Source of the DNA: a virus
Reading direction: 5' to 3' (one strand)
Length of the DNA: 64,000 nt
IMG/VR virus record: IMGVR_UViG_3300029448_008324
Coordinates: 1 to 64,000 of that record
Of this stretch, positions 1,870 through 58,213 are shown in pieces. The notes beneath the pieces were generated by a model. That model made no database searches and was not told the origin of the DNA. It was given only the letters and a program-made list of their open reading frames with translations. The translations under genes and the position numbers were made by a program. How positions within the stretch are numbered: the stretch's first letter is position 1; the number at the start of each line of letters is the position of its first letter.

Positions 1870-2509
1870 TTGACCGTGCAAATGCCTTGTGAGCGCCTCT
1901 GCCGAAATGACCTCCATAATCACCTAAATCACGTGCATGATTTTCAAATGAATGCAAATACATATTTTCTAAATTTATATTGTGCTTGTTCAACAATTCA
2001 CAGTCATAACTGTTTGTGATAAAATGATAGCACTCTGAGCCCTTCCAATCACACCATTGTTCAACAAAAAACACTTGCTGTAAAAAATGGGCCACATTCA
2101 TTTCGTCAGTGTTTTGCACCAACAAACGTGTGTGTTCGTCTCCAGAGCCTGTGATTCTTGAAATGCTTTCAACATCCTGATAGTTTCTCCTTATCATGTT
2201 GGGCCACACCATGATAACTTTTTGCGGCGGGACCACTTGTCCAAATGAATACAGCAGTCTCACACATTCTTCTGGTGATGCTCCAGGATGGCCAATATTG
2301 AATATTTTATGATCCACTTGTCTTTCCAATTGTTCGCAAAATGTTTGTCCATCATCTAGTGTCACACCAAATGTGTTTGACTCTCCAAACACCAAACAAA
2401 AATGATTCCAGTCTTGAAATTCATGAGTGCGATAACCATGTGCATTGCATTTGTATCCTTCAAGTGGTCCAAAACTTATGATCGAGTTTGAGTAAAATCC
2501 GTATTGCAT
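1850..2509 (-). CDS. SGNH/GDSL-fold-like hypothetical protein
   Basis: Block motifs FGESNTFG, NIGHPGAS and C-terminal D..GHFG..AH. Confidence 0.5.
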   Translation of the reverse strand: MQYGFYSNSIISFGPLEGYKCNAHGYRTHEFQDWNHFCLVFGESNTFGVTLDDGQTFCEQLERQVDHKIFNIGHPGASPEECVRLLYSFGQVVPPQKVIMVWPNMIRRNYQDVESISRITGSGDEHTRLLVQNTDEMNVAHFLQQVFFVEQWCDWKGSECYHFITNSYDCELLNKHNINLENMYLHSFENHARDLGDYGGHFGRGAHKAFARSIKTFCF

Positions 2510-2532
2510 TATTCAAATAATTATCATATAAT
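2504..2532 (+). promoter_or_regulatory. Sigma70-type promoter for gp47/gp46
   Basis: TTGCAT-N17-TATAAT, ATG 8 nt downstream. Confidence 0.6.
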
Positions 2533-2540
2533 AAAACTCA

Positions 2541-3551
2541 ATGCAAACTTTTAAACGTGCGGCTGTGTTTGCTGACATACACTTTGGCAACAAAGGCAAT
2601 TCACGCCAGTTCAATGAAGACTGTGATCGTTATGTGGACTGGTTCGTTGAACACGCCCAATCACAAAACTGTGACACTTGTATTTTCTTGGGTGATTGGC
2701 ATCATCAACGTGCCACACTAAACATTACCACACTGCAACATTCACTGCAAAACTTAGAAAAAATTGCAAATGCATTCGAAAACAATCATTTTATTGTTGG
2801 CAATCATGACTTATATTACAAAGATTCTCGTGCTGTAAATTCAATTGAATTTGCTAAACACATCAAAAATTTAAACCTAATTCTGGAACCATATTACACA
2901 GAGGATTGTGCGTTTATTCCGTGGTTGGTATCAGAGGAATGGAAGCAACTCAAAGACATGCCGGCAAAGCCGTACGTGTTCGGCCACTTTGAGTTGCCAC
3001 ACTTCCTTATGAATGCAATGGTGTCCATGCCTGACACAAATGAATTGAGCGGCAATGACTTGAATCATCATGGCTATGTGTTTTCAGGACACTTTCACAA
3101 AAGACAAATGAAAGGCAATATTCACTACATTGGCAACGCATTTCCACACAACTATTCAGATGCCAACGACTTTAGACGTGGTTATATGGTGCTGGAACAT
3201 GGTGGAGATCCTGTGTATCATGATTGGCCCAACATGCCTGTGTATCAAACACTTAAACTTAGTGAACTCCTACACAACGCATCCATACTTAAAAAACGTG
3301 CATATGTGAGAGTGGACATAGACACAGAGATTACATATGAAGAATCAAACTTTATAAAAGACACATTTATTGCACAACACACACTGCGTGAAATGACATT
3401 CATACAACAGCGTGACATCACACAGCATGACTCTACAGATTTAACACAAGCATTTGAGTCAATTGATGAAATTGTGCATTCACAACTAATGGCCGTTGAT
3501 TCTGAACACTATGACAGAAACTTGTTGCTAGAAATATACAAAAATTTATGA
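2541..3551 (+). CDS. gp47: Recombination nuclease, Mre11/SbcD-like (gp47)
   Basis: Metallophosphoesterase motifs ADIHFG, FLGDWHH, VGNHD, SGHFH. Confidence 0.92.
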   Translation: MQTFKRAAVFADIHFGNKGNSRQFNEDCDRYVDWFVEHAQSQNCDTCIFLGDWHHQRATLNITTLQHSLQNLEKIANAFENNHFIVGNHDLYYKDSRAVNSIEFAKHIKNLNLILEPYYTEDCAFIPWLVSEEWKQLKDMPAKPYVFGHFELPHFLMNAMVSMPDTNELSGNDLNHHGYVFSGHFHKRQMKGNIHYIGNAFPHNYSDANDFRRGYMVLEHGGDPVYHDWPNMPVYQTLKLSELLHNASILKKRAYVRVDIDTEITYEESNFIKDTFIAQHTLREMTFIQQRDITQHDSTDLTQAFESIDEIVHSQLMAVDSEHYDRNLLLEIYKNL

Positions 3552-5311
3552 TAAAATTTAAAACACTCACAGTAAAAAATTTTATGTCAGTGGGCAATGT
3601 CACACAAGCCATTAATTTTGAAGGACAAGATCTCACACTGGTGCTTGGGCAAAACATTGACTTAGGTGGGGATGATGCTGGATCAAGAAATGGAACTGGC
3701 AAAACAACCATACTCAATGCACTGTCATTTGCACTGTTCGGAGATGCATTAACCAACATCAAGCGAGACAATCTTGTCAACAAAACCAACGAACGTGGCA
3801 TGGTGGTGTCTTGTGAATTTGAGATCGATGGCAAAAACTACAAGATCGAAAGAGGCAGGAAGCCTGCCATTATAAAGTTTTATGTGGATGGCAAACAAGA
3901 TGAAGATGATGAAGCACAAGGCGACTCCAGAGAAACACAAAAAGACATTACAAAACTGCTGGGCATGAGTCACATCATGTTTCAAAACATTGTGGCACTG
4001 CACACATATGCTCCTCCGTTTTTTGGATTAAGAGCTGCTGAACAAAAAGACATCATTGAACAGCTGTTGGGCATCACTGTGCTGAGTGAAAAAGCAGAAG
4101 TGCTGAAAGAAGAATTAAAAGAAACCAAAGAGGTAATCAAAGAAGAAGAAATAAGACTAGATGAAATTGAACGCAACAATGAAAAAATACAGTCTTCAAT
4201 TGATGCACTAGAAACACGTCAGCGTGGTTGGAAGGCCCAACAAAAGACAGACATTGAAAAGTTGACGCTGTCATTGGAAGAACTAATGAAGGTAGACATC
4301 AAAGATGAAATTGCAAAACACAAAAAACTTGAAGCATACAGAGAAAACTTTGAAAAGAAACGCACATGGGAACGTGAACTTGCCACTGTGCAAACAGCAG
4401 TCAAACAATCAACCAAACAGTTGACTGAAATACTGGACTCCATTGACAAAACGCAAAACAAAACATGCCACACATGTGGTGGCCCAATGGAAGATGATCA
4501 GCATCAATCCATGGTTGATAAACTGCACAAAGATCGCAGTGACTTTGAAACATACATAGAAGACTTGGTATCACAGGAATCAGGTCTCACACAAAAGATA
4601 AAAAGTATTGGTGATCTAGAACAGCCGGAAACCTATTATGACACAGCACAGCAGGCTTATAAGCATGAAAACACTGTGGAATACTTGGGCGAACAACTAG
4701 GAACAAAAACAAAAGAACAAGATCCTTATCAAGAACAGATTGATGAATTAAAAACTTCTGCTGTGCAAGAACTGTCATATCACAAGATGAACAATCTACG
4801 CAAACTGCAAGATCATCAAGAGTTCCTATACAAACTGTTGACATCCAAAGATTCATTTGTGCGTAAACGTGTGATTGATCAAAACTTGACATATCTTAAT
4901 TCAAGGCTGGCTTTTTATTTGGACAAAACAGGACTGCCACATGAAGTAAAGTTTCAATCAGATCTCACTGTAGAAATCACTGAACTGGGGAGAGATCTTG
5001 ACTTTGATAATCTGTCCAGAGGTGAACGCAACAGACTGATCCTAAGTCTGTGTTGGGCATTCCGAGATGTGTGGGAAATGTTGTATCACAACATCAATAC
5101 CATGTTTATTGATGAACTTGTTGATTCAGGCATGGACACAGCAGGTGTTGAAAATGCCATTGGCATATTGAAACAGATTGCACGTGAACGTCACAAAAAC
5201 ATATATCTTATTTCACACAGAGATGAACTGCAGGGCAGAGTAAACAATGTATTGAAGGTAACCAAAGAAAATGGCTTTACTTCATATGCATTCACAGACA
5301 TGGTAGAATAA
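3548..5311 (+). CDS. gp46: Recombination ATPase, Rad50/SbcC-like (gp46)
   Basis: Walker A NGTGKTT, coiled coil with CHTC zinc hook, LSRGE signature, FIDE Walker B, ISH. Confidence 0.93.
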   Translation: MIKFKTLTVKNFMSVGNVTQAINFEGQDLTLVLGQNIDLGGDDAGSRNGTGKTTILNALSFALFGDALTNIKRDNLVNKTNERGMVVSCEFEIDGKNYKIERGRKPAIIKFYVDGKQDEDDEAQGDSRETQKDITKLLGMSHIMFQNIVALHTYAPPFFGLRAAEQKDIIEQLLGITVLSEKAEVLKEELKETKEVIKEEEIRLDEIERNNEKIQSSIDALETRQRGWKAQQKTDIEKLTLSLEELMKVDIKDEIAKHKKLEAYRENFEKKRTWERELATVQTAVKQSTKQLTEILDSIDKTQNKTCHTCGGPMEDDQHQSMVDKLHKDRSDFETYIEDLVSQESGLTQKIKSIGDLEQPETYYDTAQQAYKHENTVEYLGEQLGTKTKEQDPYQEQIDELKTSAVQELSYHKMNNLRKLQDHQEFLYKLLTSKDSFVRKRVIDQNLTYLNSRLAFYLDKTGLPHEVKFQSDLTVEITELGRDLDFDNLSRGERNRLILSLCWAFRDVWEMLYHNINTMFIDELVDSGMDTAGVENAIGILKQIARERHKNIYLISHRDELQGRVNNVLKVTKENGFTSYAFTDMVE

Positions 5312-5955
5312 TGAATATTAAAATTTATGAAAAGCTCAAACAAATATGGCCATGCTCTGACACACTGCTGTCAACAACATTTGGCATGGAAATACATCAA
5401 GCAGGCATGGAGATTGACGAACTTGCATATTATATTGATGATCGCATCCTGCACAAATACTTTTCTGAAATATGGCAACCAAAATTAAAAAAATTCAAGT
5501 TTAGTGGCTTGCGTTTGATAGAGGAAGTCAATGCACTCAATCCAAGAAGTGTTTTGGATGTTGGCTGTGGTTACAACGAGTTCAAAGGCAAAATTAAAAA
5601 TTTAATTGGTCTTGATCCTTATAATAGACATGCTGATTTACAAATTAAAATTGAGGATTACAGCACCACAGAAAAATTTGATGTGATACTGTGTTTAGGA
5701 TCAATAAATTTTGGATCACATGACAAGATTCTCAAAGAACTCACAGTGTGTAAAAACTTACTTGCAGATGGAGGCAAAATGTTTTTTAGAGTGAACCCTG
5801 GACTAGATCATGAACCACCAGAATCAAAATACATTAATTTTTATCCATGGAATGTGTATCAAATCACACAGATAGCCAAACAATTAGATCTTGCTATACT
5901 TGATCTAAGACATGATTTCAATGATCGCATTTATTTTGTTTACGCTAAACTTTAA
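5311..5955 (+). CDS. Class I SAM-dependent methyltransferase
   Basis: VLDVGCG motif I; FDVILCLGSINF. Confidence 0.8.
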   Translation: MNIKIYEKLKQIWPCSDTLLSTTFGMEIHQAGMEIDELAYYIDDRILHKYFSEIWQPKLKKFKFSGLRLIEEVNALNPRSVLDVGCGYNEFKGKIKNLIGLDPYNRHADLQIKIEDYSTTEKFDVILCLGSINFGSHDKILKELTVCKNLLADGGKMFFRVNPGLDHEPPESKYINFYPWNVYQITQIAKQLDLAILDLRHDFNDRIYFVYAKL

Positions 5956-6519
5956 TTACAAATAGACATATACTTTTATATCATTGGATGTGTAATCTTT
6001 GTATGAGTTTTTAGGAAAACTAATTTCCAGCAGTTCGCATAATTGTAGTGAATCAACAACATTTACAACCTTTGATTGATTATCTTTAATGAACTGCATA
6101 ATATCTTTGTTTTGTTTTTGAATGTGATTCCACATGTTGCCTAATGGTTTGAAATAATTATAACTTGGATATGTGATGTCAAACCCGCCTGCATCGTTCC
6201 ACCATTTGTAACATTCAACGTCATTTCTGTATACCATCACAATTGGATATTTTAAAGTTTTTAACAAGTCAAGTTGATGTGCAAATGTATGTGATTTTAT
6301 AATTCTTATTCCAGTACCCGAAAAAGGTTTGTTCCAATTTTCTTGTTTATTGTCAAATTCCATGCCAGGATCAAAATAAGCACCCACGTGCTTTACTGTT
6401 TGGTTAAAGTAAGAACGTCCACTGGTGCTATCAGATTGATCAATATCAGGAGACTTGTGTATGCTTTCAGCAACACCACTCCACTTTGATCCTGGGGCAC
6501 CAGTGAATAAAATATACAC
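5956..6519 (-). CDS. Hypothetical P-loop/sulfotransferase-fold-like protein
   Basis: N-terminal FTGAPGSKWS, IIKSH and MVYRN motifs; start overlaps the tctC stop. Confidence 0.45.
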   Translation of the reverse strand: MYILFTGAPGSKWSGVAESIHKSPDIDQSDSTSGRSYFNQTVKHVGAYFDPGMEFDNKQENWNKPFSGTGIRIIKSHTFAHQLDLLKTLKYPIVMVYRNDVECYKWWNDAGGFDITYPSYNYFKPLGNMWNHIQKQNKDIMQFIKDNQSKVVNVVDSLQLCELLEISFPKNSYKDYTSNDIKVYVYL

Positions 6520-7565
6520 TATTGTGTCAGTTCTTGTTTGTATACAGCATTAAAGCCAAGTTGATTTTTGCCAAAATCTACCAAAGTTTGCAATGCGCCA
6601 GGAGTAATGAATGACTTGAGTGTTTGCACAGCTGCATCTCCTTCATCACCTGTTCTCCATTCATACTTGCCTACTTTCTTTTCAATAGCGGCAATAGATT
6701 CTGGATCTTGGATCATTTTGTTTAGTGCATCAACAAGTTTGTCCTTGTTTGGATTTCCTGCATTTACCCAAAATGCTTTTTGCAGTGCATCTCTCCAACT
6801 TTTTACAAGTTTGTATGCATCATAAAAATCGCCGCTGGGTGCAACACCATGCATTGATTCATACAGTGCTTCAAATGTTGGCTCTGTAAAATTAGGATCA
6901 ACATCATGTGCACCTGTGTCCACATTCAATAGTCCATGATGAAACCATGTGTATGCATCGCCTTTTTCAATCATAGGCACAACATGTTTTTTGTAGGCTG
7001 CTGGATTTTCTCTGGTTGCATTAAGATCTCCTCTAATAAATGCCAGTCTTCTTTCAGATCCTTTCATGCCTTTGACCCAAACAATTTTTTCTTCAAATGT
7101 TTCAATTGGATCACCATCTGGGCCTGCAAGTAACATCACAATGGCCATCACTTCTGGAGTCATTCCAGAACCTGATGAAAATTGTATTGGCCCGTTTTCA
7201 GTGTCCGCTTTGTTTCTTGCACCCACAATGATGTTGAGATTCATGTGTCCAATAGATTCCCAATCAAAATAATTGTAGTCCACTGGTTCAGTGAGATACG
7301 ATATTCCATTGCCACCATGCGATACCAGTATAGTTTTGTCATTAAATCTTAATTCATTTTGGAATTCATTTGGACCTAGTTGATCTCTAGCACCCGGCTT
7401 GTATGTCAAATTAATTTTTTCGCCAAGATGTTTTTCCCATTCTTGCACAACTATTTGTGCCCATACAGATGTTCCGCCTGATGGTTTTTGTGGCACGATC
7501 AAATTGTAATCTGCCAAAGCAGTTGTTGTCATCAACAACAATGCCATTATTGTTTTCTTAAGCAT
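6519..7565 (-). CDS. tctC: Tripartite tricarboxylate transporter substrate-binding protein (TctC/Bug-like)
   Basis: Signal peptide; IVPQKPSGGT and KPGA motifs; adjacent to tctA. Confidence 0.75.
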   Translation of the reverse strand: MLKKTIMALLLMTTTALADYNLIVPQKPSGGTSVWAQIVVQEWEKHLGEKINLTYKPGARDQLGPNEFQNELRFNDKTILVSHGGNGISYLTEPVDYNYFDWESIGHMNLNIIVGARNKADTENGPIQFSSGSGMTPEVMAIVMLLAGPDGDPIETFEEKIVWVKGMKGSERRLAFIRGDLNATRENPAAYKKHVVPMIEKGDAYTWFHHGLLNVDTGAHDVDPNFTEPTFEALYESMHGVAPSGDFYDAYKLVKSWRDALQKAFWVNAGNPNKDKLVDALNKMIQDPESIAAIEKKVGKYEWRTGDEGDAAVQTLKSFITPGALQTLVDFGKNQLGFNAVYKQELTQ

Positions 7566-8994
7566 AGTTAAGTCTACTCCTTTTTTTAATTCCCCAATAC
7601 AGCAAAAACATCACACACATCATTATGACCAAAAAGATTGGTCTCGTGATGAGATCATTTACTGTGTGGAGAGTTGTTAATTGATAAGTGAGGCTATAAA
7701 TCCTATCACTCAACAAAAATCCTATCAGTAGTGCTGGCCTACTGACTTGATATTTTTTGCATGCCAATCCTAAAACTGAAAATGCAAACAAAACTGCAAG
7801 ATCTTCCCATCCCCCTGTGTATTGCAAGGTTGCCCACACAATCACAGCAAGCACAAAAGGAAAGTAATACACATAAGGAATGCGTGATACCCATCCTGCA
7901 AAATATGCCAGTCCATAACAAATGACAGCAGTGATCACAGTTCCTACAAGAAATGCAAATGACATGCTGTCAAATAATTTGTCATCATAAAATGTATCAG
8001 GCGATCCAAGATCAATGCCAAGATACAAAAACAATCCCATCAATATTGCGGCAAATGGAGCGCCTGGTATGCCAAACAACACAGTGGGAATAAACGAAGA
8101 TGCCTTCTGTGCATTGTTGGCGCCTTCTGCACCCACCACTCCACGCACATTACCTTCGCCAAACTTTTCTTTGGGATTAGCTGCTACTGTGGCTCCATAA
8201 GCCAACCAATCTGCCATGGCTCCTCCTAGTCCTGGCAATAATCCAATCACTGAACCAATGGCTCCGCCTCTAAGGCTGTCTTTCCAAAATTTTATAGTGT
8301 CTTTAATGCCTAGGATTAAGTCTTGCCAACTGCCATGATTAGTTTTGATGTTAGTGGTTTTATTCCTCTTGATCCAACCACTCCACAGTTCAGGTATAGC
8401 AAATAAACCTGCAACAAAAGGAAGGATCTGCACGCCATCTTCTAGATATCTCCAACCCATGGTAAATCTGGCCATAGCATTTGCATCTACCCCAACCAAT
8501 CCAACAACAACTCCTGTCACAATTGCAATTACACTTCGCACCCATTTATTAGTGGAAACAAATCCCACAGTAACAAATGCCAACAACACTAGTGCCCATA
8601 ATTCTGGAATACCCATATACATCACCACTTTAGTATACCATGGCAACAATAGGAATGTAAGTGATCCCCAAAACAATCCATTGCAGGTTGAGGATGTAAT
8701 TGCAGCTGATAGTGCCCGTGTGGCTTGTCCATTTTTGGCCATTGGAAATCCATCCACCATGGTTGCGGCCGCAGAGTTGGCTCCTGGTATGCCCAACAGC
8801 ACACCACTAAATGAATCACCGGTTGTAGATGAAGCCACCACTGCCACACAAAAAATCACACCAAGATAGGGGTCTCCTACAAAATAAGGCATGAATCCAA
8901 ACAGTGCGATAAGTCCAGTTGTTGCTCCTGCGGCGGGTATCAGGCCGATGATTAAGCCATACACAATACCTGCCAACAATATTGCAAGTTCCAT
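7558..8994 (-). CDS. tctA: Tripartite tricarboxylate transporter large permease TctA
   Basis: LLGIPG..SAAATMVDGFPMAK.G, GLLPGLGG and EGANNA...FIPTVLFGIPG motifs; highly hydrophobic. Confidence 0.9.
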   Translation of the reverse strand: MELAILLAGIVYGLIIGLIPAAGATTGLIALFGFMPYFVGDPYLGVIFCVAVVASSTTGDSFSGVLLGIPGANSAAATMVDGFPMAKNGQATRALSAAITSSTCNGLFWGSLTFLLLPWYTKVVMYMGIPELWALVLLAFVTVGFVSTNKWVRSVIAIVTGVVVGLVGVDANAMARFTMGWRYLEDGVQILPFVAGLFAIPELWSGWIKRNKTTNIKTNHGSWQDLILGIKDTIKFWKDSLRGGAIGSVIGLLPGLGGAMADWLAYGATVAANPKEKFGEGNVRGVVGAEGANNAQKASSFIPTVLFGIPGAPFAAILMGLFLYLGIDLGSPDTFYDDKLFDSMSFAFLVGTVITAVICYGLAYFAGWVSRIPYVYYFPFVLAVIVWATLQYTGGWEDLAVLFAFSVLGLACKKYQVSRPALLIGFLLSDRIYSLTYQLTTLHTVNDLITRPIFLVIMMCVMFLLYWGIKKRSRLNYA

Positions 8995-9067: not shown

Positions 9068-9475
9068 TTAGCGTTTTTTAAACATATTGCCATGCACTCT
9101 GACACGAATGTGTCCGTTGTAGTAGGCATCGGATTCCAGCACTTTTCTAGCAAACTGTTCTCTGGCTTCTACGTAGGACAGTTCTGCTTTGTTTTTGCAG
9201 TAAAACAGTATTTCACGAGTAAATTTGTCACGACCCAACTGTTCAACATCTTCTGTGAGTGCATCTGACGATCCATAGTATTCGCGCCAGTCTGATTCCA
9301 CTTTGTATCTGCGTCTGTTTTTTCTGCCCTTGAGTGGAGGGCGGGACTTTTTGAACTCCACAAGTTTTTTGCCAATGTATTTCCTACCTGTTTGGTTGTT
9401 GGTGATTTCATACACAAATCCCACACATCCTTCAGGTATTTCATCAACAGTTTTGCCTTGGTATTGCCATGTCAT
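9068..9475 (-). CDS. GIY-YIG endonuclease
   Basis: GFVYEITN..TGRKYIGKK, YYGSS, FTREIL and YYNG motifs. Confidence 0.88.
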   Translation of the reverse strand: MTWQYQGKTVDEIPEGCVGFVYEITNNQTGRKYIGKKLVEFKKSRPPLKGRKNRRRYKVESDWREYYGSSDALTEDVEQLGRDKFTREILFYCKNKAELSYVEAREQFARKVLESDAYYNGHIRVRVHGNMFKKR

Positions 9476-9999
9476 TGTTAAGTATATACGCCATGCACCA
9501 AGCCTCTCCCAACATAGTTGATTCCATTGTCAATTGGATGGAAACATTTGTGGAAGTGCCACATCCATCATTTGGCAACATGCCTCCCTGTCCATATGCT
9601 CGTCAGTTTAGACTGCAGAACAAAGTAAAAATTGTTGAATGTCATCAAGCAATATGGGATGAATGCAAATCACAAATGCGTGAATGGACAGACGAGTGGG
9701 AAGCAGTTATACTTGCGTCAACATTCAGAGAAATTTCCACAGGACTTTTGTCAGAACGCATTCAAAAGATAAACAAACATTTCAAACACTATGATCTCGT
9801 GGCTTTGGAAGATCATCCTGATAGTGCTGAATTCATTGATGGTGTCAAAATGAATCACGGTGAACTTGTGCTTGTGGTTGTGCAAAGACTTGCAAGACTA
9901 AACCAATTCAGCAAAAATCTACAAGCAACCAAATACTATCATCGCTGGAGTGAAGAAAATCTTGATGATGTGGTGAGTTGGCGTTTCAGCGATTCTTAG
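9469..9999 (+). CDS. Hypothetical protein with PCPYA motif (DUF1415-like); true start possibly 9493
   Basis: W...FVE.P.....PPCPYA, EDHP and VQRL motifs. Confidence 0.5.
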   Translation: MSLLSIYAMHQASPNIVDSIVNWMETFVEVPHPSFGNMPPCPYARQFRLQNKVKIVECHQAIWDECKSQMREWTDEWEAVILASTFREISTGLLSERIQKINKHFKHYDLVALEDHPDSAEFIDGVKMNHGELVLVVVQRLARLNQFSKNLQATKYYHRWSEENLDDVVSWRFSDS

Positions 10000-10717
10000 G
10001 CTTGCTCAATCCACAGATGGATTGATAAACACTTTCTAAATCTTCTACATCCTCAACAAAACAGTCTGCACGGATGTGTTGCTCATACAGTGCAAGATCT
10101 TGGCTCCATTCACGGCCAGTCCACCATTCAAAAGCAGGAATTTTAGATTTGTATCGGCAAGACTCATCATAGGACGCCCCCAGATAAAACCAATTGTATC
10201 CTTTGGCATGTGCTGAGCGAATTTCATGGTCCATAGAAAATTTTCCCATGTGCAGTTGAGGATCTCGGTAGTCCCATGCATACTGCCAATTGTCAATGGA
10301 ATGTCCGTATTTGGTCCACACAGACCATGCTACCAATTTGTTATCATAATAGTAACAGTGGAATGTTTCCTTGTCTGATATGCCAAACTTGTTAAACATA
10401 AATGAATCATGGAATCCATTGTGCTGGATGAATTGATCATACACATCTTCTAGTAGGGTTTGATGTTTGATGGCAAACGATCCGGACCATTTTTCCACAG
10501 TCACTCCTTTGCGTTGTTTGAACTTAGGCGCTGTGTCGATGTATTTTTTGATGTTGATGCGAGATGACCTTACTTGTGACCAACGATCACCTATGTCAAT
10601 GTATCCTTGAGCCAGTGCTTGTTCTTGTTCTTCTGGTTCAACATCTGCAAACACCTTAACCCACTGCATGTCATACTTGTCTAATCTACCATATGGATGT
10701 TCAAACCAAATTTTCAT
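9986..10717 (-). CDS. Aminoacyl(Arg/Leu)-tRNA-protein transferase-like GNAT protein (ATE/Bpt-like)
   Basis: C-terminal WDY..P.L.MGKFS..HEI..A...G..WFYLG.SY...CRYK resembles the ATE_C domain. Own TTGACT-N17-TATAAT promoter at 10752-10724. Confidence 0.65.
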   Translation of the reverse strand: MKIWFEHPYGRLDKYDMQWVKVFADVEPEEQEQALAQGYIDIGDRWSQVRSSRINIKKYIDTAPKFKQRKGVTVEKWSGSFAIKHQTLLEDVYDQFIQHNGFHDSFMFNKFGISDKETFHCYYYDNKLVAWSVWTKYGHSIDNWQYAWDYRDPQLHMGKFSMDHEIRSAHAKGYNWFYLGASYDESCRYKSKIPAFEWWTGREWSQDLALYEQHIRADCFVEDVEDLESVYQSICGLSKPKNR

Positions 10718-10738
10718 TGCTTTATTATAACACCAACA

Positions 10739-11806
10739 CTATTTGTAGTCAATATAGGATTGACATTCACCTTCTCTGTATAGATCTTGCGTGACACAGT
10801 GAATTCCTCCATCAAAGAAAAATCTATGTCTCAAAGGACAAATAATGGGTACAATTTTGTGTTTTTTAAAAAAATCAAATACTTGTTTGTTGTAACTAGA
10901 TACCAACACAGTGTGTTCATTCAGCATCATACAATTGACATCAAACACAGTTTCTTCTACATACCCTAGCCAACTGTCTAACCATGAATTAACAAAGTCA
11001 AGCAATTCTTTGTTGTCTTCTTCTCCTGGTATCCAATATTTGCCGTAAGTTTTTTGTTTGGCTTGCATGAATTCAGGCAATTGGCCTATGTTACTGTCAT
11101 CCAAATAACACACTTCCCAGCCTGGAAATGTTTCTGTATATGTCATGATGTCATCTAATGATATGATAGCTCCTGGTTTCACAGTGTGGAAACACGAATC
11201 ATTATGGCCACCAATTTCAACCCAATGTATGTCAACTTCTGGCCACCATTTCTGTGCCCAGCGTTCGATGATGTTTCTTGAATTTGGATTGTATTCAACA
11301 AAATCATTCACTTCCCATTGATCGATATCAATAAACAAATCTTTGCCAACCAAAGTCCAACAAGGCGGATCTATAAATTTGATGTTATTTTTTATCAGCA
11401 AGTCATGCCACGGAGTGTTGCGTTGCAAAATATCTTCTGTGATAATTTCTGAAAAATAACCATCACTAGTTGCATGCTGATCAGAAAATATAAGATGTTG
11501 TCCTAACACAGAGAGTCGATTTCTTGGATATAACACTGGTTGAATGCCTTGAGCTTTTTGATCAGGATCAAGATACTTTGGGAATTTTTCTTTGTTGACT
11601 CTCACAACTTCAACACTCTGTTCACCACACACTTTGGCAATATTGTCTAGATCTTCTTGTGCTTCAATGACCAGTTGTTGTAATTTTTCTTTGATCTCAA
11701 TGTTTGCAACATGATCAAAATATTCAGGGGCAACACAATGACCAACCATTACTTTCTTGAGGTTATCCCATTTGGACCATACGTTGAAATCGTTTTGATT
11801 GGACAT
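10739..11806 (-). CDS. Amidinotransferase (glycine/inosamine amidinotransferase family)
   Basis: WDNLKKVMVG, PRN, GHND and VFDVN motifs; catalytic GGIHCVT. Confidence 0.85.
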   Translation of the reverse strand: MSNQNDFNVWSKWDNLKKVMVGHCVAPEYFDHVANIEIKEKLQQLVIEAQEDLDNIAKVCGEQSVEVVRVNKEKFPKYLDPDQKAQGIQPVLYPRNRLSVLGQHLIFSDQHATSDGYFSEIITEDILQRNTPWHDLLIKNNIKFIDPPCWTLVGKDLFIDIDQWEVNDFVEYNPNSRNIIERWAQKWWPEVDIHWVEIGGHNDSCFHTVKPGAIISLDDIMTYTETFPGWEVCYLDDSNIGQLPEFMQAKQKTYGKYWIPGEEDNKELLDFVNSWLDSWLGYVEETVFDVNCMMLNEHTVLVSSYNKQVFDFFKKHKIVPIICPLRHRFFFDGGIHCVTQDLYREGECQSYIDYK

Positions 11807-11817
11807 AATAATTAAGT

Positions 11818-12180
11818 GTGTATATATTTATAGACATGGACATTTACCATATTTTTGCTGATCACCATGACGGCACTGATGCATACACTTTTGTAAAAAA
11901 GATGAGTGTGTTTCTTGATGAGATGGTTGCACTTGGCAAAATGGAATCACATCGTATCATGAGAATGAAGTTGGGATTCCGATCAATGGATTTGCCAGAG
12001 TTTCACATCATGATGGAATTCAAAAACATGCAACAGTTGGATGATGCTATGACAGCTGTGATACGAAATGAAAAAAATATCGACGAATCCCATGTTACTT
12101 TTAATTCACTGGTCAACGTGGATACCATTCAACATTTCTTATACAGAGACTTTCCAGACCAGATCGACGACAGCAAATAA
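11818..12180 (+). CDS. Hypothetical protein (DUF6614-like ferredoxin-fold)
   Basis: RIMRMKLGFRSMDLPEFHIMMEF..MQQLD and LYRDFPD motifs. Confidence 0.5.
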   Translation: MYIFIDMDIYHIFADHHDGTDAYTFVKKMSVFLDEMVALGKMESHRIMRMKLGFRSMDLPEFHIMMEFKNMQQLDDAMTAVIRNEKNIDESHVTFNSLVNVDTIQHFLYRDFPDQIDDSK

Positions 12181-12596: not shown

Positions 12597-12806
12597 TCAG
12601 CGATGTTGCTTGTGAAACTTTGTAATGAACTCTTGCAGTTCAACATCAGGACGCGAATCTTGACAGTGTGACTCTAAAAATGTACTCATCATTTCAGCAA
12701 CTGCTTTGGGTGAATGATTCATCAACATGGACTTGATTACCATGGTGCACTGTGAGTGTAGATCCTGTTTGTTGATCACAGCATGTTTTGATTTGACTAT
12801 TGCCAT
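12597..12806 (-). CDS. Hypothetical protein (69 aa)
   Basis: ORF with TAAGTA late-like box upstream. Confidence 0.5.
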   Translation of the reverse strand: MAIVKSKHAVINKQDLHSQCTMVIKSMLMNHSPKAVAEMMSTFLESHCQDSRPDVELQEFITKFHKQHR

Positions 12807-13300: not shown

Positions 13301-13537
13301 TTATAGCAATGGCATTTTGGTCTTCTTGACTGTTTCAATGTTTTGTTTGATCAAAGTGTGCAACATGCGTCGATCATCATTGCACAAATTATAGGCTTCT
13401 GTCAAACTAACACTGCCTCTCATATACCAACAGATGCTATGCAGATCATCTTTGATCTGCTTGTTTTCATTATCTAGTTCTTTGAAGTATGCTACGAGGT
13501 CAGGTTCCGAGAGCGAGAGGATTTTGGCACGAAAAAA
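13301..13537 (-). CDS. gp51-like baseplate-hub/tail-assembly domain, predicted C-terminal extension of the gp26-like protein via -1 frameshift
   Basis: 78 sense codons (FFRAKILSLSEPDLVAYFKELD...ICWYMRGSVSLTEAYNL...KMPLL) bounded by TAA 13540-13538 and TAA 13303-13301. No ATG/GTG/TTG until codon 39. Confidence 0.7.
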   Translation of the reverse strand, partial: FFRAKILSLSEPDLVAYFKELDNENKQIKDDLHSICWYMRGSVSLTEAYNLCNDDRRMLHTLIKQNIETVKKTKMPLL

Positions 13538-14376
13538 TTAGAGTTGTCCATGGAAATTTGTGTTTGATACGATTTTGGTGCACCTTTTTCTATCAACTCT
13601 GCAGGTGTTACAATGTCCACAGGAGGAATAGTGCCTTTGTTTTTTTCACGATCAATGTGATCGCGAATCTCATTAGCATATTTGGTTTCAATGTTATGAA
13701 CCCATTCTTTAATAAACACAGGATCAATCACTGCTTCATCTTGGTCTGGCATCTTGATGCTGACAATCATGTCTGTAATGGCTTTCACAGAAAGTTCGCC
13801 TATTTTAGCAAAAATCTTGTTAAACTCTTCCAGCTTCTGCTGTTCGGTCATTGTCGAATCCTGCACAGTTCTAATAAGCCTTTGTTCTTCATAGCTTTTT
13901 AGATTCTGTTGACTGATGCCACGATAGTTCATAGGTTTCAAATTGACCACCAATCCATTGCTTAACTGCATGACATCACCCCAAGGTTCATATGAAATTC
14001 TTTCCAACATGGTACTGAGATGCACCTGGACCGTGTTACTTTCTTGTGTGTTGGGCACCGCTGTGGTGACATCCATCATCTCACCATAGGTAGCAATTCT
14101 AATTCCTACTAACAGTGTGTCAGTGTCCATGGAAGGCACATGCCAAGGATCTTTGATAGCGGGTATGCATGACTTGAACACATCCACAGTGGCCTGTCCG
14201 TTCATGAGAGCATCTGGCGTGCGAATGGTCATTTCGTCTTTTGCAGTCATGGGCATGATGCCCACTTCGCCTTGATCATTAAGTTCAATGCAACCTGGTG
14301 GATACCAACGTCCCTGTGATGGCAAACGAACATATACTGCTGGTTGCCTAAAGTATGTAGATAGTGGGTTTGTCAT
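13492..14376 (-). CDS. Baseplate hub assembly protein / tail chaperone (T4 gp26-like)
   Basis: LPSQG, PMTAKDE, D.DTLLVGIRIATYGE motifs and ..NFF near the C-terminus. Confidence 0.75.
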   Translation of the reverse strand: MTNPLSTYFRQPAVYVRLPSQGRWYPPGCIELNDQGEVGIMPMTAKDEMTIRTPDALMNGQATVDVFKSCIPAIKDPWHVPSMDTDTLLVGIRIATYGEMMDVTTAVPNTQESNTVQVHLSTMLERISYEPWGDVMQLSNGLVVNLKPMNYRGISQQNLKSYEEQRLIRTVQDSTMTEQQKLEEFNKIFAKIGELSVKAITDMIVSIKMPDQDEAVIDPVFIKEWVHNIETKYANEIRDHIDREKNKGTIPPVDIVTPAELIEKGAPKSYQTQISMDNSNFFVPKSSRSRNLTS

Positions 14377-57699: not shown

Positions 57700-57909
57700 A
57701 TGGAAAAAACTATAATTAATGCCTTAAAAAAACATGCTGAAGGTCAAATTGCCAAGCACAGAGTCAACGTAGAAATCTACATGCAAAATGCTGTTGGTGT
57801 AGGAGAACACACTGACATATTAGAAAGCATAGAGAAGGAACTTAATTCAATAGGTAAGTATGAAGAACAAATTGAGGTTTTGAAAAAACACTTTTCTAAT
57901 GAAGATTAA
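57700..57909 (+). CDS. Small hypothetical protein
   Basis: SD AAGGAG; NAVGVGEHTDILESIEKEL. Confidence 0.7.
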   Translation: MEKTIINALKKHAEGQIAKHRVNVEIYMQNAVGVGEHTDILESIEKELNSIGKYEEQIEVLKKHFSNED

Positions 57910-58213
57910 AGTCATAGACAGAAGTGGCAACGGTTCTGAAATCCCCGCTGAAGTTGGAATGTCTATCGAATCTGCAATCACACAGGCAGGCGTAGAAGAC
58001 AGTTTCGGCATATGCGGGGGTGCTTGTGCTTGTGCATCTTGTCAAGTGTATGTTGCCAAAGAAGACTATGACAAATTGACAGCACCAGATGAAGGAGAAA
58101 CTGCTGTGTTGGAAGACATGGCATATGAACTGCAACCAACATCAAGACTCAGTTGTCAAATGGAAGTGACTCCAAATATGGAAGGCATGACTTTTACCAT
58201 TGCTCCATATTAA
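57899..58213 (+). CDS. fdx: 2Fe-2S ferredoxin (ISC/adrenodoxin type)
   Basis: CGGACACASC...SRLSCQ. Confidence 0.92.
   Translation: MKIKVIDRSGNGSEIPAEVGMSIESAITQAGVEDSFGICGGACACASCQVYVAKEDYDKLTAPDEGETAVLEDMAYELQPTSRLSCQMEVTPNMEGMTFTIAPY

What the first reader, a model, noticed from the sequence alone, without database searches (positions are those of the whole stretch)
9469..12180. Amidinotransferase plus aminoacyl-tRNA-transferase-like cluster with two unknown flanking genes
Seen: an amidinotransferase with catalytic H/C motifs directly upstream of an ATE/Bpt-like GNAT, flanked by PCPYA-motif and DUF6614-like genes. Established: amidinotransferases use arginine as donor, and ATE/Bpt enzymes transfer Arg or Leu from charged tRNA to N-termini (N-degron pathway). 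Inference: either phage-directed tagging of host proteins for proteolysis, or a tRNA-dependent pathway making a guanidino/aminoacyl modification of a glycan, base or peptide.
Basis: inference. Interest (0 to 1): 0.7.

Follow-up and report, generated by a model that had tools for sequence, protein, structure and literature searches.

The report
Phage haem-enzyme, tRNA-transferase, amidinotransferase cassette
An uncultured marine T4-like phage carries four neighbouring genes (a probable cysteine-ligated haem oxygenase, a relative of the enzymes that take amino acids off charged tRNA, an arginine-type amidinotransferase and a small unknown protein) that stay together in hundreds of other uncultured phages; they look like an undescribed pathway for an arginine- or guanidine-type compound, not a protein-degradation tag.

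Summary

- **AMT355 (10739-11806, minus strand):** a GATM/HsvA-type amidinotransferase. The catalytic His, Asp and Cys are conserved.
- **ATE243 (9986-10717, minus strand):** passes Pfam ATE_C. Its model matches ATE1 over the whole length. It lacks the Cys-rich ATE_N domain.
- **DUF6614 gene (likely 11836-12180, plus strand):** a clear DUF6614 member.
- **"PCPYA" protein (likely 9493-9999, plus strand):** a new reading. It is a small relative of the thiolate-haem "sandwich" enzymes. Its N-terminus aligns with the haem-binding motif of cytochrome P422 (DUF6875), Cys on Cys. Its model's best structural match is AglA, a YqcI/YcgG guanidine N-hydroxylase.

Co-occurrence is strong. 79 of 80 PCPYA loci have the ATE gene adjacent, and 66 of 80 DUF6614 loci sit beside at least one other module gene. 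I counted 35 gene orders. The module splits into two pairs: PCPYA+ATE and AMT+DUF6614.

The closest precedent is argolaphos AglC (Arg-tRNA-dependent ligase) plus AglA. The most likely function is tailoring an arginine-derived or guanidino compound. The N-degron reading is less likely. The product and substrate are unknown.

This scan found the same module earlier on other phage DNA. This window holds a variant with the long, two-domain ATE and divergent gene orientations.

The parts
9493..9999 (+). PCPYA protein (168 aa from the likely start; the ORF opens at 9469). Candidate small cysteine-ligated haem oxygenase of the P422 (DUF6875) / YqcI-YcgG / DUF1415 kind.
9986..10717 (-). ATE243, an ATE/Bpt-like aminoacyl-transferase homologue in its long, two-domain form. 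It has no Cys-rich ATE_N.
10739..11806 (-). AMT355, an amidinotransferase of the GATM / HsvA / SxtG kind.
   Evidence: PDB sequence matches with the catalytic His, Asp and Cys aligned. H201, D203 and C337 are kept in at least 16 of 17 phage paralogues. The environmental family is large and unnamed: 2978 clusters, essentially without Pfam domains.
11836..12180 (+). DUF6614 protein (114 aa from the likely start; the ORF opens at 11818). Function unknown. It is the usual partner of the amidinotransferase.
   Evidence: PF20319 E 1.9e-23. Homologues start at MDIYHIF. It lies next to AMT alone in 17 of 80 loci, and next to at least one module gene in 66 of 80. A PDB profile search found no relative.
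10724..10752 (-). Sigma-70-like promoter match just upstream of ATE243 (TTGACT, 17 nt, TATAAT, with TG; 11 of 12).
   Evidence: Consensus scan. This is a pattern match only; the region has 22 such matches against 13.3 expected.
57899..58213 (+). 2Fe-2S ferredoxin encoded by the same phage. It is a possible electron donor for the haem enzyme. This link is inference only.
   Evidence: The Cys pattern was found by script. Pfam Fer2 27.7 bits, cut-off 21. P422 and AglA both need ferredoxin plus a reductase in vitro (bioRxiv 10.64898/2025.12.11.692455; PMC12866846).

Best explanation
The four genes form a mobile enzyme cassette made of two pairs.

Pair 1 is a small cysteine-ligated haem oxygenase (PCPYA) with an ATE-type transferase. 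Pair 2 is an arginine-dependent amidinotransferase with DUF6614.

The most likely function is to build or tailor an arginine-derived or guanidino compound in the infected cell:
1. The amidinotransferase moves an amidino group from L-arginine onto a primary amine, creating a guanidino group.
2. The ATE-like enzyme forms an amide (or ester) bond, using an aminoacyl-tRNA as the activated amino-acid donor.
3. The haem protein, fed by ferredoxin, hydroxylates the substrate, probably on nitrogen.

This resembles AglC followed by AglA in argolaphos biosynthesis.

Shown here: the family assignments, the conserved catalytic residues, the folds, and the obligate gene linkage. Inferred: haem binding, tRNA dependence, the order of steps, and the substrate. 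Unknown: the product and the role of DUF6614.
For: Linkage:
- 79 of 80 PCPYA loci have the ATE gene directly adjacent. The one exception is cut by a contig end. 43 of 80 also have AMT, 42 of 80 DUF6614, and 20 of 80 all four.
- Seeded on DUF6614: 37 of 80 loci have all four genes, and 17 of 80 have AMT+DUF6614 only.
- 205 distinct stretches show 35 orientation-aware gene orders in several unrelated flanking contexts. The linkage is therefore selected, not just inherited synteny.

PCPYA as a thiolate-haem enzyme relative. Published data show DUF6875/P422 uses the Cys of RxGxVCP as the axial ligand (bioRxiv 10.64898/2025.12.11.692455), and AglA uses Cys44 (PMC12866846).

ATE-like identity.

Amidinotransferase identity.

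Precedent:
- AMPn-Arg, the substrate of AglA, is made by AglC with arginine, ATP, ArgRS and total tRNA (PMC12866846, methods).
- The cluster table lists a pfam13480 GNAT two genes from the YqcI/YcgG gene (PMC8976061). The AglA and AglC accession numbers are also two apart, so equating AglC with that GNAT is my inference.
- PF13480 also hits ATE243.

L009 has AMT-AMT-PCPYA without ATE, which links guanidino formation to the haem enzyme. The phage encodes a 2Fe-2S ferredoxin.
Against: - No biochemistry exists for any of the four phage families.
- P422 enzymes act on tryptophan, so a guanidine substrate is not implied by that relative.
- Most module copies carry a short ATE of about 140 aa: one GNAT lobe only. 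The known aminoacyl-tRNA transferases that matched ATE243 (ATE1, MprF, FemX) aligned over two-lobed or larger chains, so tRNA dependence is uncertain.
- AMT and DUF6614 are each missing from about half of the PCPYA+ATE loci, so an amidino step is not obligatory.
- 57 of 84 ATE-seeded loci have no PCPYA.
- No tRNA-Arg or aminoacyl-tRNA synthetase is in the 108-kb record.
Confidence: 0.5

Rival explanations
1. The cassette modifies a macromolecule (a virion protein, a surface or phage-linked glycan, DNA or tRNA), not a free metabolite. For example, it might amidinate an amino sugar or a lysine and then aminoacylate or hydroxylate it.
For: In many T4-like contigs, and in this window, the module sits next to the baseplate hub and tape-measure genes. 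A 30%-identical amidinotransferase of cyanophage S-SCSM2R was detected in the virion proteome (PMC12801897). The second AMT paralogue of this phage lies beside an NAD-dependent sugar epimerase/dehydratase and a KDO-8-P synthase-type gene. L003 has a DegT-type sugar aminotransferase fragment between two AMT paralogues. ATE1 and Bpt act on proteins.
Against: The characterised relatives of the haem protein (AglA, P422) and the solved amidinotransferases that matched (GATM, HsvA, SxtG, StrB1) all act on small molecules. The module also occurs in contexts unrelated to tail genes. No glycosyltransferase or DNA-modification gene travels with it.
Confidence: 0.17
2. N-degron tagging. The ATE-like enzyme adds Arg or Leu from tRNA to N-termini of host or phage proteins, to send them to ClpS/ClpAP. 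The haem protein might create or sense the acceptor, as N-terminal Cys oxidation precedes arginylation in eukaryotes (that comparison is from my own knowledge).
Against: ATE_N and its cysteines are absent: there is no Cys in the first 119 residues and no ATE_N hit in 55 members. The NCBIfam Bpt/arginyltransferase models score 12-20 bits against cut-offs of 170-267. This reading does not explain the amidinotransferase(s) or DUF6614. The obligate partner belongs to small-molecule oxygenase families. Most copies are single-lobe mini forms.
Confidence: 0.12
3. Hydroxamate-style chemistry without tRNA. The haem enzyme N-hydroxylates an amine or guanidine, and the GNAT N- or O-acylates it from an acyl-CoA. 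This would resemble the pairing of N-hydroxylases with GNAT acyltransferases in siderophore pathways (from my own knowledge) and would give a metal-binding or reactive compound.
Against: The lobe hits ATE_C but no CoA-type GNAT family in Pfam. The family motif after strand 4 (P-x-L-x-x-G) looks to me like the ATE/Bpt type (comparison from my own knowledge), and the Q/R-x-x-G-x-G/A CoA pyrophosphate signature is not seen.
Confidence: 0.12
4. The genes are functionally unrelated passengers of a hypervariable island, kept together only by shared descent or by the neighbouring SegE homing endonuclease.
For: The region between gp46/47 and the hub genes is a mosaic of accessory genes. A SegE GIY-YIG gene is adjacent in 23 of the first 90 loci.
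Against: 79 of 80 PCPYA loci keep ATE adjacent, even at about 30% protein identity. There are 35 gene orders and several unrelated flanks, including contigs without SegE.
Confidence: 0.03

Closest known systems
Argolaphos pair AglC + AglA of Streptomyces monomycini (PMC12866846; PMC8976061)
   Same: A transferase that needs ArgRS and tRNA works next to a thiolate-haem 'sandwich' hydroxylase, on an arginine substrate. The cluster's pfam13480 GNAT is most likely AglC (my inference from gene spacing), and PF13480 also hits ATE243. AglA is the best structural match of the PCPYA model.
   Different: The phage haem protein is 168 aa against 243 for the AglA chain, and it does not hit Pfam YqcI_YcgG. 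The phage transferase is closer to ATE_C than to AglC's family. There are no phosphonate genes. The phage adds amidinotransferase(s) and DUF6614. The setting is a lytic phage genome, not a Streptomyces cluster.
Eukaryotic ATE1 and bacterial Bpt (Pfam ATE_N + ATE_C)
   Same: ATE_C scores above the cut-off. The two-lobe fold matches over the whole length for the 243-aa form.
   Different: There is no ATE_N and no N-terminal cysteines. The NCBIfam equivalog scores are far below their cut-offs. Most relatives in the module are one-lobe mini forms.
Cytochrome P422 (formerly DUF6875), thiolate-haem tryptophan hydroxylases (bioRxiv 10.64898/2025.12.11.692455)
   Same: The N-terminal helix plus haem-binding loop align, with Cys on Cys: W..F....PHP..G....CP. 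Both are described or modelled as a helix / four-strand-sheet sandwich.
   Different: The phage protein is shorter than the 180-300 aa P422 range. I could not recognise the published substrate-binding motifs SBR1-3 with confidence; only a loosely similar M-x-x-G-x-L is present. Its gene partners differ: P422 genes sit with tryptophan-metabolism genes.
Amidinotransferases GATM, StrB1, SxtG and HsvA (PDB 1jdw, 1bwd, 6u1r, 5wpi)
   Same: The catalytic His, Asp and Cys are conserved, and the C-terminal blade is similar. From my own knowledge, in phevamine biosynthesis HsvA amidinates a polyamine that is then joined to amino acids. That logic parallels AMT plus an amino-acid transferase.
   Different: Identity is low outside the C-terminal 80 residues, and there is no Pfam hit. 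The acceptor is unknown. There are up to three paralogues per phage contig, and the usual partner is DUF6614.

Membership tests
ATE1 / Bpt aminoacyl-tRNA-protein transferases | ATE_C domain (PF04377) above the gathering score | tested here: met
   31.7 bits against a cut-off of 25. 42 of 55 family members hit it.
ATE1 / Bpt aminoacyl-tRNA-protein transferases | ATE_N domain with conserved cysteines | tested here: not met
   No ATE_N hit in ATE243 or in any of 55 relatives. The first Cys of ATE243 is at about residue 120.
ATE1 / Bpt aminoacyl-tRNA-protein transferases | Two-lobe GNAT-like fold superposable on ATE1 | tested here: met
ATE1 / Bpt aminoacyl-tRNA-protein transferases | NCBIfam arginyltransferase/Bpt equivalog score | tested here: not met
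   12-20 bits against cut-offs of 170-267.
ATE1 / Bpt aminoacyl-tRNA-protein transferases | Uses aminoacyl-tRNA as donor and a protein N-terminus as acceptor | not testable with these tools
   Needs an enzyme assay.
Cytochrome P422 (DUF6875, PF21780) | Pfam gathering score | tested here: not met
   17.2-17.3 bits against a cut-off of 24.5. 23 of 25 relatives hit weakly, the best at E 6e-5.
Cytochrome P422 (DUF6875, PF21780) | Haem-binding region with the axial Cys (RxGxVCP) | tested here: met
   hhalign probability 89.9%, E 1.7e-6. The invariant Cys33 aligns with the motif Cys, and C-P is conserved. The Arg of the motif is not conserved, and the loop is one residue shorter.
Cytochrome P422 (DUF6875, PF21780) | Substrate-binding motifs SBR1-3 for tryptophan | tested here: inconclusive
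   The profile alignment stops after 56 columns. By eye, only an M-x-x-G-x-L resembling MxGxF is present.
YqcI/YcgG haem guanidine N-hydroxylases (PF08892) | Pfam or profile similarity | tested here: not met
   No PF08892 hit. hhalign against one cyanobacterial member gives probability 0.4%.
YqcI/YcgG haem guanidine N-hydroxylases (PF08892) | Sandwich fold with an N-terminal axial Cys | tested here: inconclusive
Thiolate-haem proteins in general | Binds haem b through Cys | not testable with these tools
   Needs spectroscopy of purified protein and a C33S mutant.
Amidinotransferases (GATM / StrB1 / HsvA) | Catalytic Cys-His-Asp residues | tested here: met
   The alignments to GATM place H201 on His303, D203 on Asp305 and C337 on the catalytic Cys. 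These residues are kept in at least 16 of 17 phage paralogues.
Amidinotransferases (GATM / StrB1 / HsvA) | Significant sequence similarity to characterised members | tested here: met
   HsvA E 7e-11, GATM E about 1e-6, SxtG E 2e-5. The similarity lies mainly in the C-terminal 80 residues.
DUF6614 (PF20319) | Pfam gathering score | tested here: met
   83.1 bits against a cut-off of 25.

The most novel reading that the evidence does not exclude
Phages of marine and freshwater bacteria encode their own natural-product-like pathway that takes an amino acid from charged tRNA. A previously unrecognised mini thiolate-haem oxygenase N-hydroxylates a guanidino or amino group. An ATE-type enzyme then aminoacylates it, possibly on the new N-OH. 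From my own knowledge, that is how valanimycin-type pathways set up N-N bond formation. The result would be a reactive or metal-binding arginine-derived compound made during infection. This would be the first tRNA-dependent small-molecule pathway known from viruses, and a new class of minimal haem monooxygenase.
Probability: 0.25. Interest if true: 0.85.

Novelty: new variant of a known kind. Interest (0 to 1): 0.7.

Why it matters
Three of the four families (PCPYA, the ATE-like family and DUF6614) each occur in more than 470 viral contig stretches, yet none has a studied member. No cultured phage in the 50,697-record collection has the ATE-like gene.

If the reading holds, it would:
- add a minimal (168 aa) thiolate-haem oxygenase to the newly found P422 and YqcI families;
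- show that ATE-type enzymes have a large viral branch unrelated to protein degradation;
- reveal a widespread way in which phages redirect arginine and charged tRNA in infected aquatic bacteria.

The cassette is small enough (four genes, 2.7 kb) to be tested directly by expression and metabolomics.

Tried and rejected
I used viral and genome contig scans instead.
- **Foldseek against the PDB** found nothing for the PCPYA model: best E 2e-3, scattered methyltransferase pieces. Only the exhaustive VIA search found AglA.
- **PDB sequence profile searches** found nothing for PCPYA or DUF6614.
- **hhalign of PCPYA against one YqcI protein** gave no signal. Only 1 of 201 cyanobacterial genomes had a YqcI gene, so I could not build a profile.
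- **The one chromosomal homologue** (Oscillatoria PCC 10802, L089) stands alone beside panB and TPS-domain genes, which is uninformative.
- **Druad1**, a 44-aa anti-Druantia protein said to be DUF6614-like (bioRxiv 10.1101/2024.04.14.589459), is too short, and its authors found no homologues. I do not use it as evidence.
- **Creatine-type pathway:** I tested whether the nearby methyltransferase (5311-5955) could be a guanidinoacetate methyltransferase. It gives only a sub-threshold generic Methyltransf_23 hit.
- **No tRNA-Arg** is present in the 108-kb record.
- **ESM Atlas** held no structure for either protein and only repeated DUF1415/DUF6875 and DUF6614.
- **Both structure-prediction jobs** went to PCPYA and ATE243, so AMT355 and DUF6614 were not modelled.
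Full report
**Setting.** The window is the first 64 kb of a 108,411-base virus record. The record is a marine T4-like myophage fragment. It carries gp46/47-type recombination genes, a gp26-type baseplate hub at 13492-14376, and a SegE GIY-YIG homing endonuclease at 9068-9475. It also has TctA and a TctC-like gene and three tRNAs. The finding lies in the accessory-gene island between gp46 and the hub genes. No record in the phage collection resembles the region at DNA level.

**The observation.** All four ORFs are present.
- AMT355 (10739-11806, minus strand) has no Pfam hit. It matches the solved amidinotransferases HsvA (E 7e-11), GATM (about 1e-6) and SxtG (2e-5). Its GGH-N-D aligns on GATM His303/Asp305, and the Cys of GGIHCVT aligns on the catalytic Cys. 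In an alignment of 17 phage paralogues, H201, D203 and C337 are among only 13 positions kept in at least 16 sequences.
- ATE243 (9986-10717, minus strand) starts 21 bp after the AMT stop. It passes Pfam ATE_C (31.7 bits, cut-off 25) and Acetyltransf_6 (28.1 bits, cut-off 22).
- The 3' flanking gene is a clear DUF6614 member (E 1.9e-23).
- The 5' flanking gene has the PPCPYAR motif.

Homologues indicate later start codons for both flanking genes: 9493 and 11836. The four genes are not co-directional. PCPYA and ATE converge and overlap by 14 bp. AMT and DUF6614 diverge.

**The ATE-like protein.**
- A profile search of 1.84 billion representatives found about 270 relatives, mostly 220-265 aa and aligned end to end. 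ATE_C is the only Pfam family they hit consistently (42 of 55). None hits ATE_N.
- A 55-sequence alignment gave a confident model, pLDDT 94.2.
- Foldseek's best matches are ATE1 of K. lactis, human and yeast (E 2e-8). The MprF aminoacyl-phosphatidylglycerol synthase domain, FemX and the acetyltransferase VipF follow.
- It is not a canonical ATE1/Bpt either. The N-terminal 119 residues hold no cysteine, and the NCBIfam Bpt equivalogs score 12-20 bits against cut-offs of 170-267.

**The PCPYA protein.**
- It has 57 database clusters of homologues, none named. Invariant residues are C33, R37, D107-H108-P109, E113, Q131, W152 and R164.
- The model is confident, pLDDT 92.5. Foldseek found nothing.
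- Independently, 23 of 25 family members weakly hit Pfam DUF6875. A 2025 preprint shows DUF6875 is a thiolate-haem family, "cytochrome P422". It has a helix/four-strand sandwich fold and an axial Cys in RxGxVCP, and it hydroxylates tryptophan with ferredoxin and a reductase (bioRxiv 10.64898/2025.12.11.692455).
- I fetched 11 cyanobacterial DUF6875 genes and ran hhalign. The result was probability 89.9%, E 1.7e-6 over 56 columns, with Cys33 aligned on the motif Cys and a shared W..F....PHP..G....CP pattern.
- The C-terminal two thirds do not align by sequence, and one YqcI sequence gave no signal.
- I therefore read this protein as a small, divergent member of the thiolate-haem sandwich superfamily. 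Haem binding is inferred, not shown.
- The phage encodes a 2Fe-2S ferredoxin at 57899-58213.

**Co-occurrence.**

| Seed for the scan | Loci | Result |
|---|---|---|
| ATE family | 84 with ATE | 27 have PCPYA adjacent, including ATE copies only 32% identical to the window's; 57 have ATE without PCPYA |
| PCPYA | 80 | 79 have ATE adjacent (the exception is cut by a contig end); 43 also AMT; 42 DUF6614; 20 all four |
| DUF6614 | 80 | 37 all four; 17 AMT+DUF6614 only; 9 ATE+PCPYA+DUF6614; 2 ATE+DUF6614; 1 AMT+PCPYA+DUF6614; 14 alone |

- After removing identical stretches, 205 module stretches show 35 orientation-aware gene orders. They lie in several unrelated flanking contexts. The window's order occurs in only two other distinct stretches.
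- The data split the cassette into two pairs, PCPYA+ATE and AMT+DUF6614, which are often joined.
- L009 has AMT-AMT-PCPYA without ATE.
- Most module copies carry a short ATE of about 140 aa that equals the C-terminal lobe and still hits only ATE_C. I counted 89 short and 32 long forms. The window has the long form.

**Mechanism.**
- The best precedent is argolaphos biosynthesis. AMPn-Arg is prepared with AglC, arginine, ATP, ArgRS and total tRNA, and is then N-hydroxylated by AglA with ferredoxin and a reductase (PMC12866846).
- The cluster table lists a YqcI/YcgG gene and, two genes away, a pfam13480 GNAT proposed to use aminoacyl-tRNA (PMC8976061). The AglA and AglC accession numbers are also two apart, so I infer that AglC is that GNAT. 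PF13480 also hits ATE243.
- A tRNA-dependent transferase working beside a thiolate-haem hydroxylase on arginine is therefore an established two-step logic.
- Adding enzymes that make guanidino groups from arginine fits the same chemistry.
- I propose: amidino transfer from arginine to an amine; amide (or ester) formation from an aminoacyl-tRNA; and haem-dependent hydroxylation. The order of steps and the substrate are unknown, and DUF6614 is an unexplained partner of the amidinotransferase.
- Weak points:
  - the P422 relatives act on tryptophan;
  - the short one-lobe ATE forms leave tRNA use uncertain;
  - AMT and DUF6614 are optional;
  - the record has no tRNA-Arg.

**Rivals.**
- A macromolecular target is the strongest rival. 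The module often abuts hub and tape-measure genes. A distant AMT homologue was found in the virions of cyanophage S-SCSM2R (PMC12801897). This phage's second AMT paralogue (record 88123-89241) sits next to sugar-nucleotide genes. L003 has a DegT fragment between AMT paralogues.
- N-degron tagging explains one gene of the four and lacks ATE_N.
- An acyl-CoA, hydroxamate-type reading remains possible for the short forms.
- Chance clustering is nearly excluded.

**Novelty.**
- I found no paper on these phage families. No cultured phage has the ATE gene. Only three phage records have a weak PCPYA match.
- This scan had already met the same module on other phage DNA and reached the same AglC/AglA comparison. 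I derived it independently before reading those notes.
- New here:
  - the formal Cys-on-Cys profile link to P422;
  - the two-pair structure of the cassette;
  - the long ATE form whose whole fold matches ATE1;
  - this window's divergent gene arrangement.

Noticed in passing
window 5311-8994: The phage encodes TctA (PF01970, E 1e-92), a TctC-like binding protein, a 187-aa protein whose N-terminus reads like a P-loop (GAPGSKWS, by eye), and a weak SAM-methyltransferase hit, all just beyond SegE. The TctA/TctC pair recurs next to the module in L004, L005 and L013, and a TctC-like gene lies in L009, but not in most module contexts.
   Followed up: partly
window 9068-9475 (-): A SegE-type GIY-YIG homing endonuclease abuts the PCPYA gene. 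The same family is present in 23 of the first 90 loci, often right beside the module. It may help the cassette spread between T4-like phages.
   Followed up: partly
G000 record 88123-89241 (-), = L264:6121-7182: A second, divergent amidinotransferase paralogue lies outside the window (HMM E 3e-48). It sits beside a 174-aa unknown gene, an NAD-dependent sugar epimerase/dehydratase and a KDO-8-P synthase-type gene. This hints at an amino-sugar acceptor.
   Followed up: partly
L003 (three AMT paralogues: 872-1840, 2387-3472, 6734-7756; DegT fragment 1837-2457): One related contig has three amidinotransferase paralogues around the ATE/PCPYA/DUF6614 genes, and a DegT/DnrJ-type aminotransferase fragment between two of them.
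   Followed up: no
L035:5630-6004, and the same position in L055 and L086: In three contigs an AdoMet-decarboxylase-family gene (PF02675, E 7e-11) lies directly upstream of ATE and PCPYA on the same strand. Together these would be a decarboxylase, a transferase and an oxygenase in a row.
   Followed up: no
L022-L048 and others (e.g. L023:5369-6004): In 24 ATE loci that lack PCPYA, the adjacent gene is a 211-aa protein of phrog_3704, labelled 'ferredoxin' in PHROGs. It has no Pfam or PDB match. Other ATE-only loci have a 176-aa or a 70-aa conserved neighbour.
   Followed up: partly
window 57899-58213 (+): A 2Fe-2S ferredoxin (Fer2, 27.7 bits) whose Cys spacing looks adrenodoxin/putidaredoxin-like to me. 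It could serve either that gene or the haem protein.
   Followed up: partly
window 12597-12806 (-): A 69-aa ORF in the gap after DUF6614 is conserved in 10 related loci (family 23). It has no Pfam hit.
   Followed up: no
L088 (Bacteroidetes MAG contig, 6.3 kb) and L090 (proteobacterial MAG contig, 1.7 kb): Two of the three 'genome' hits for PCPYA are short MAG contigs with phage-like content. L088 has PCPYA-ATE-AMT, and L090 has a hub gene plus PCPYA. They are probably phage DNA binned into MAGs.
   Followed up: no
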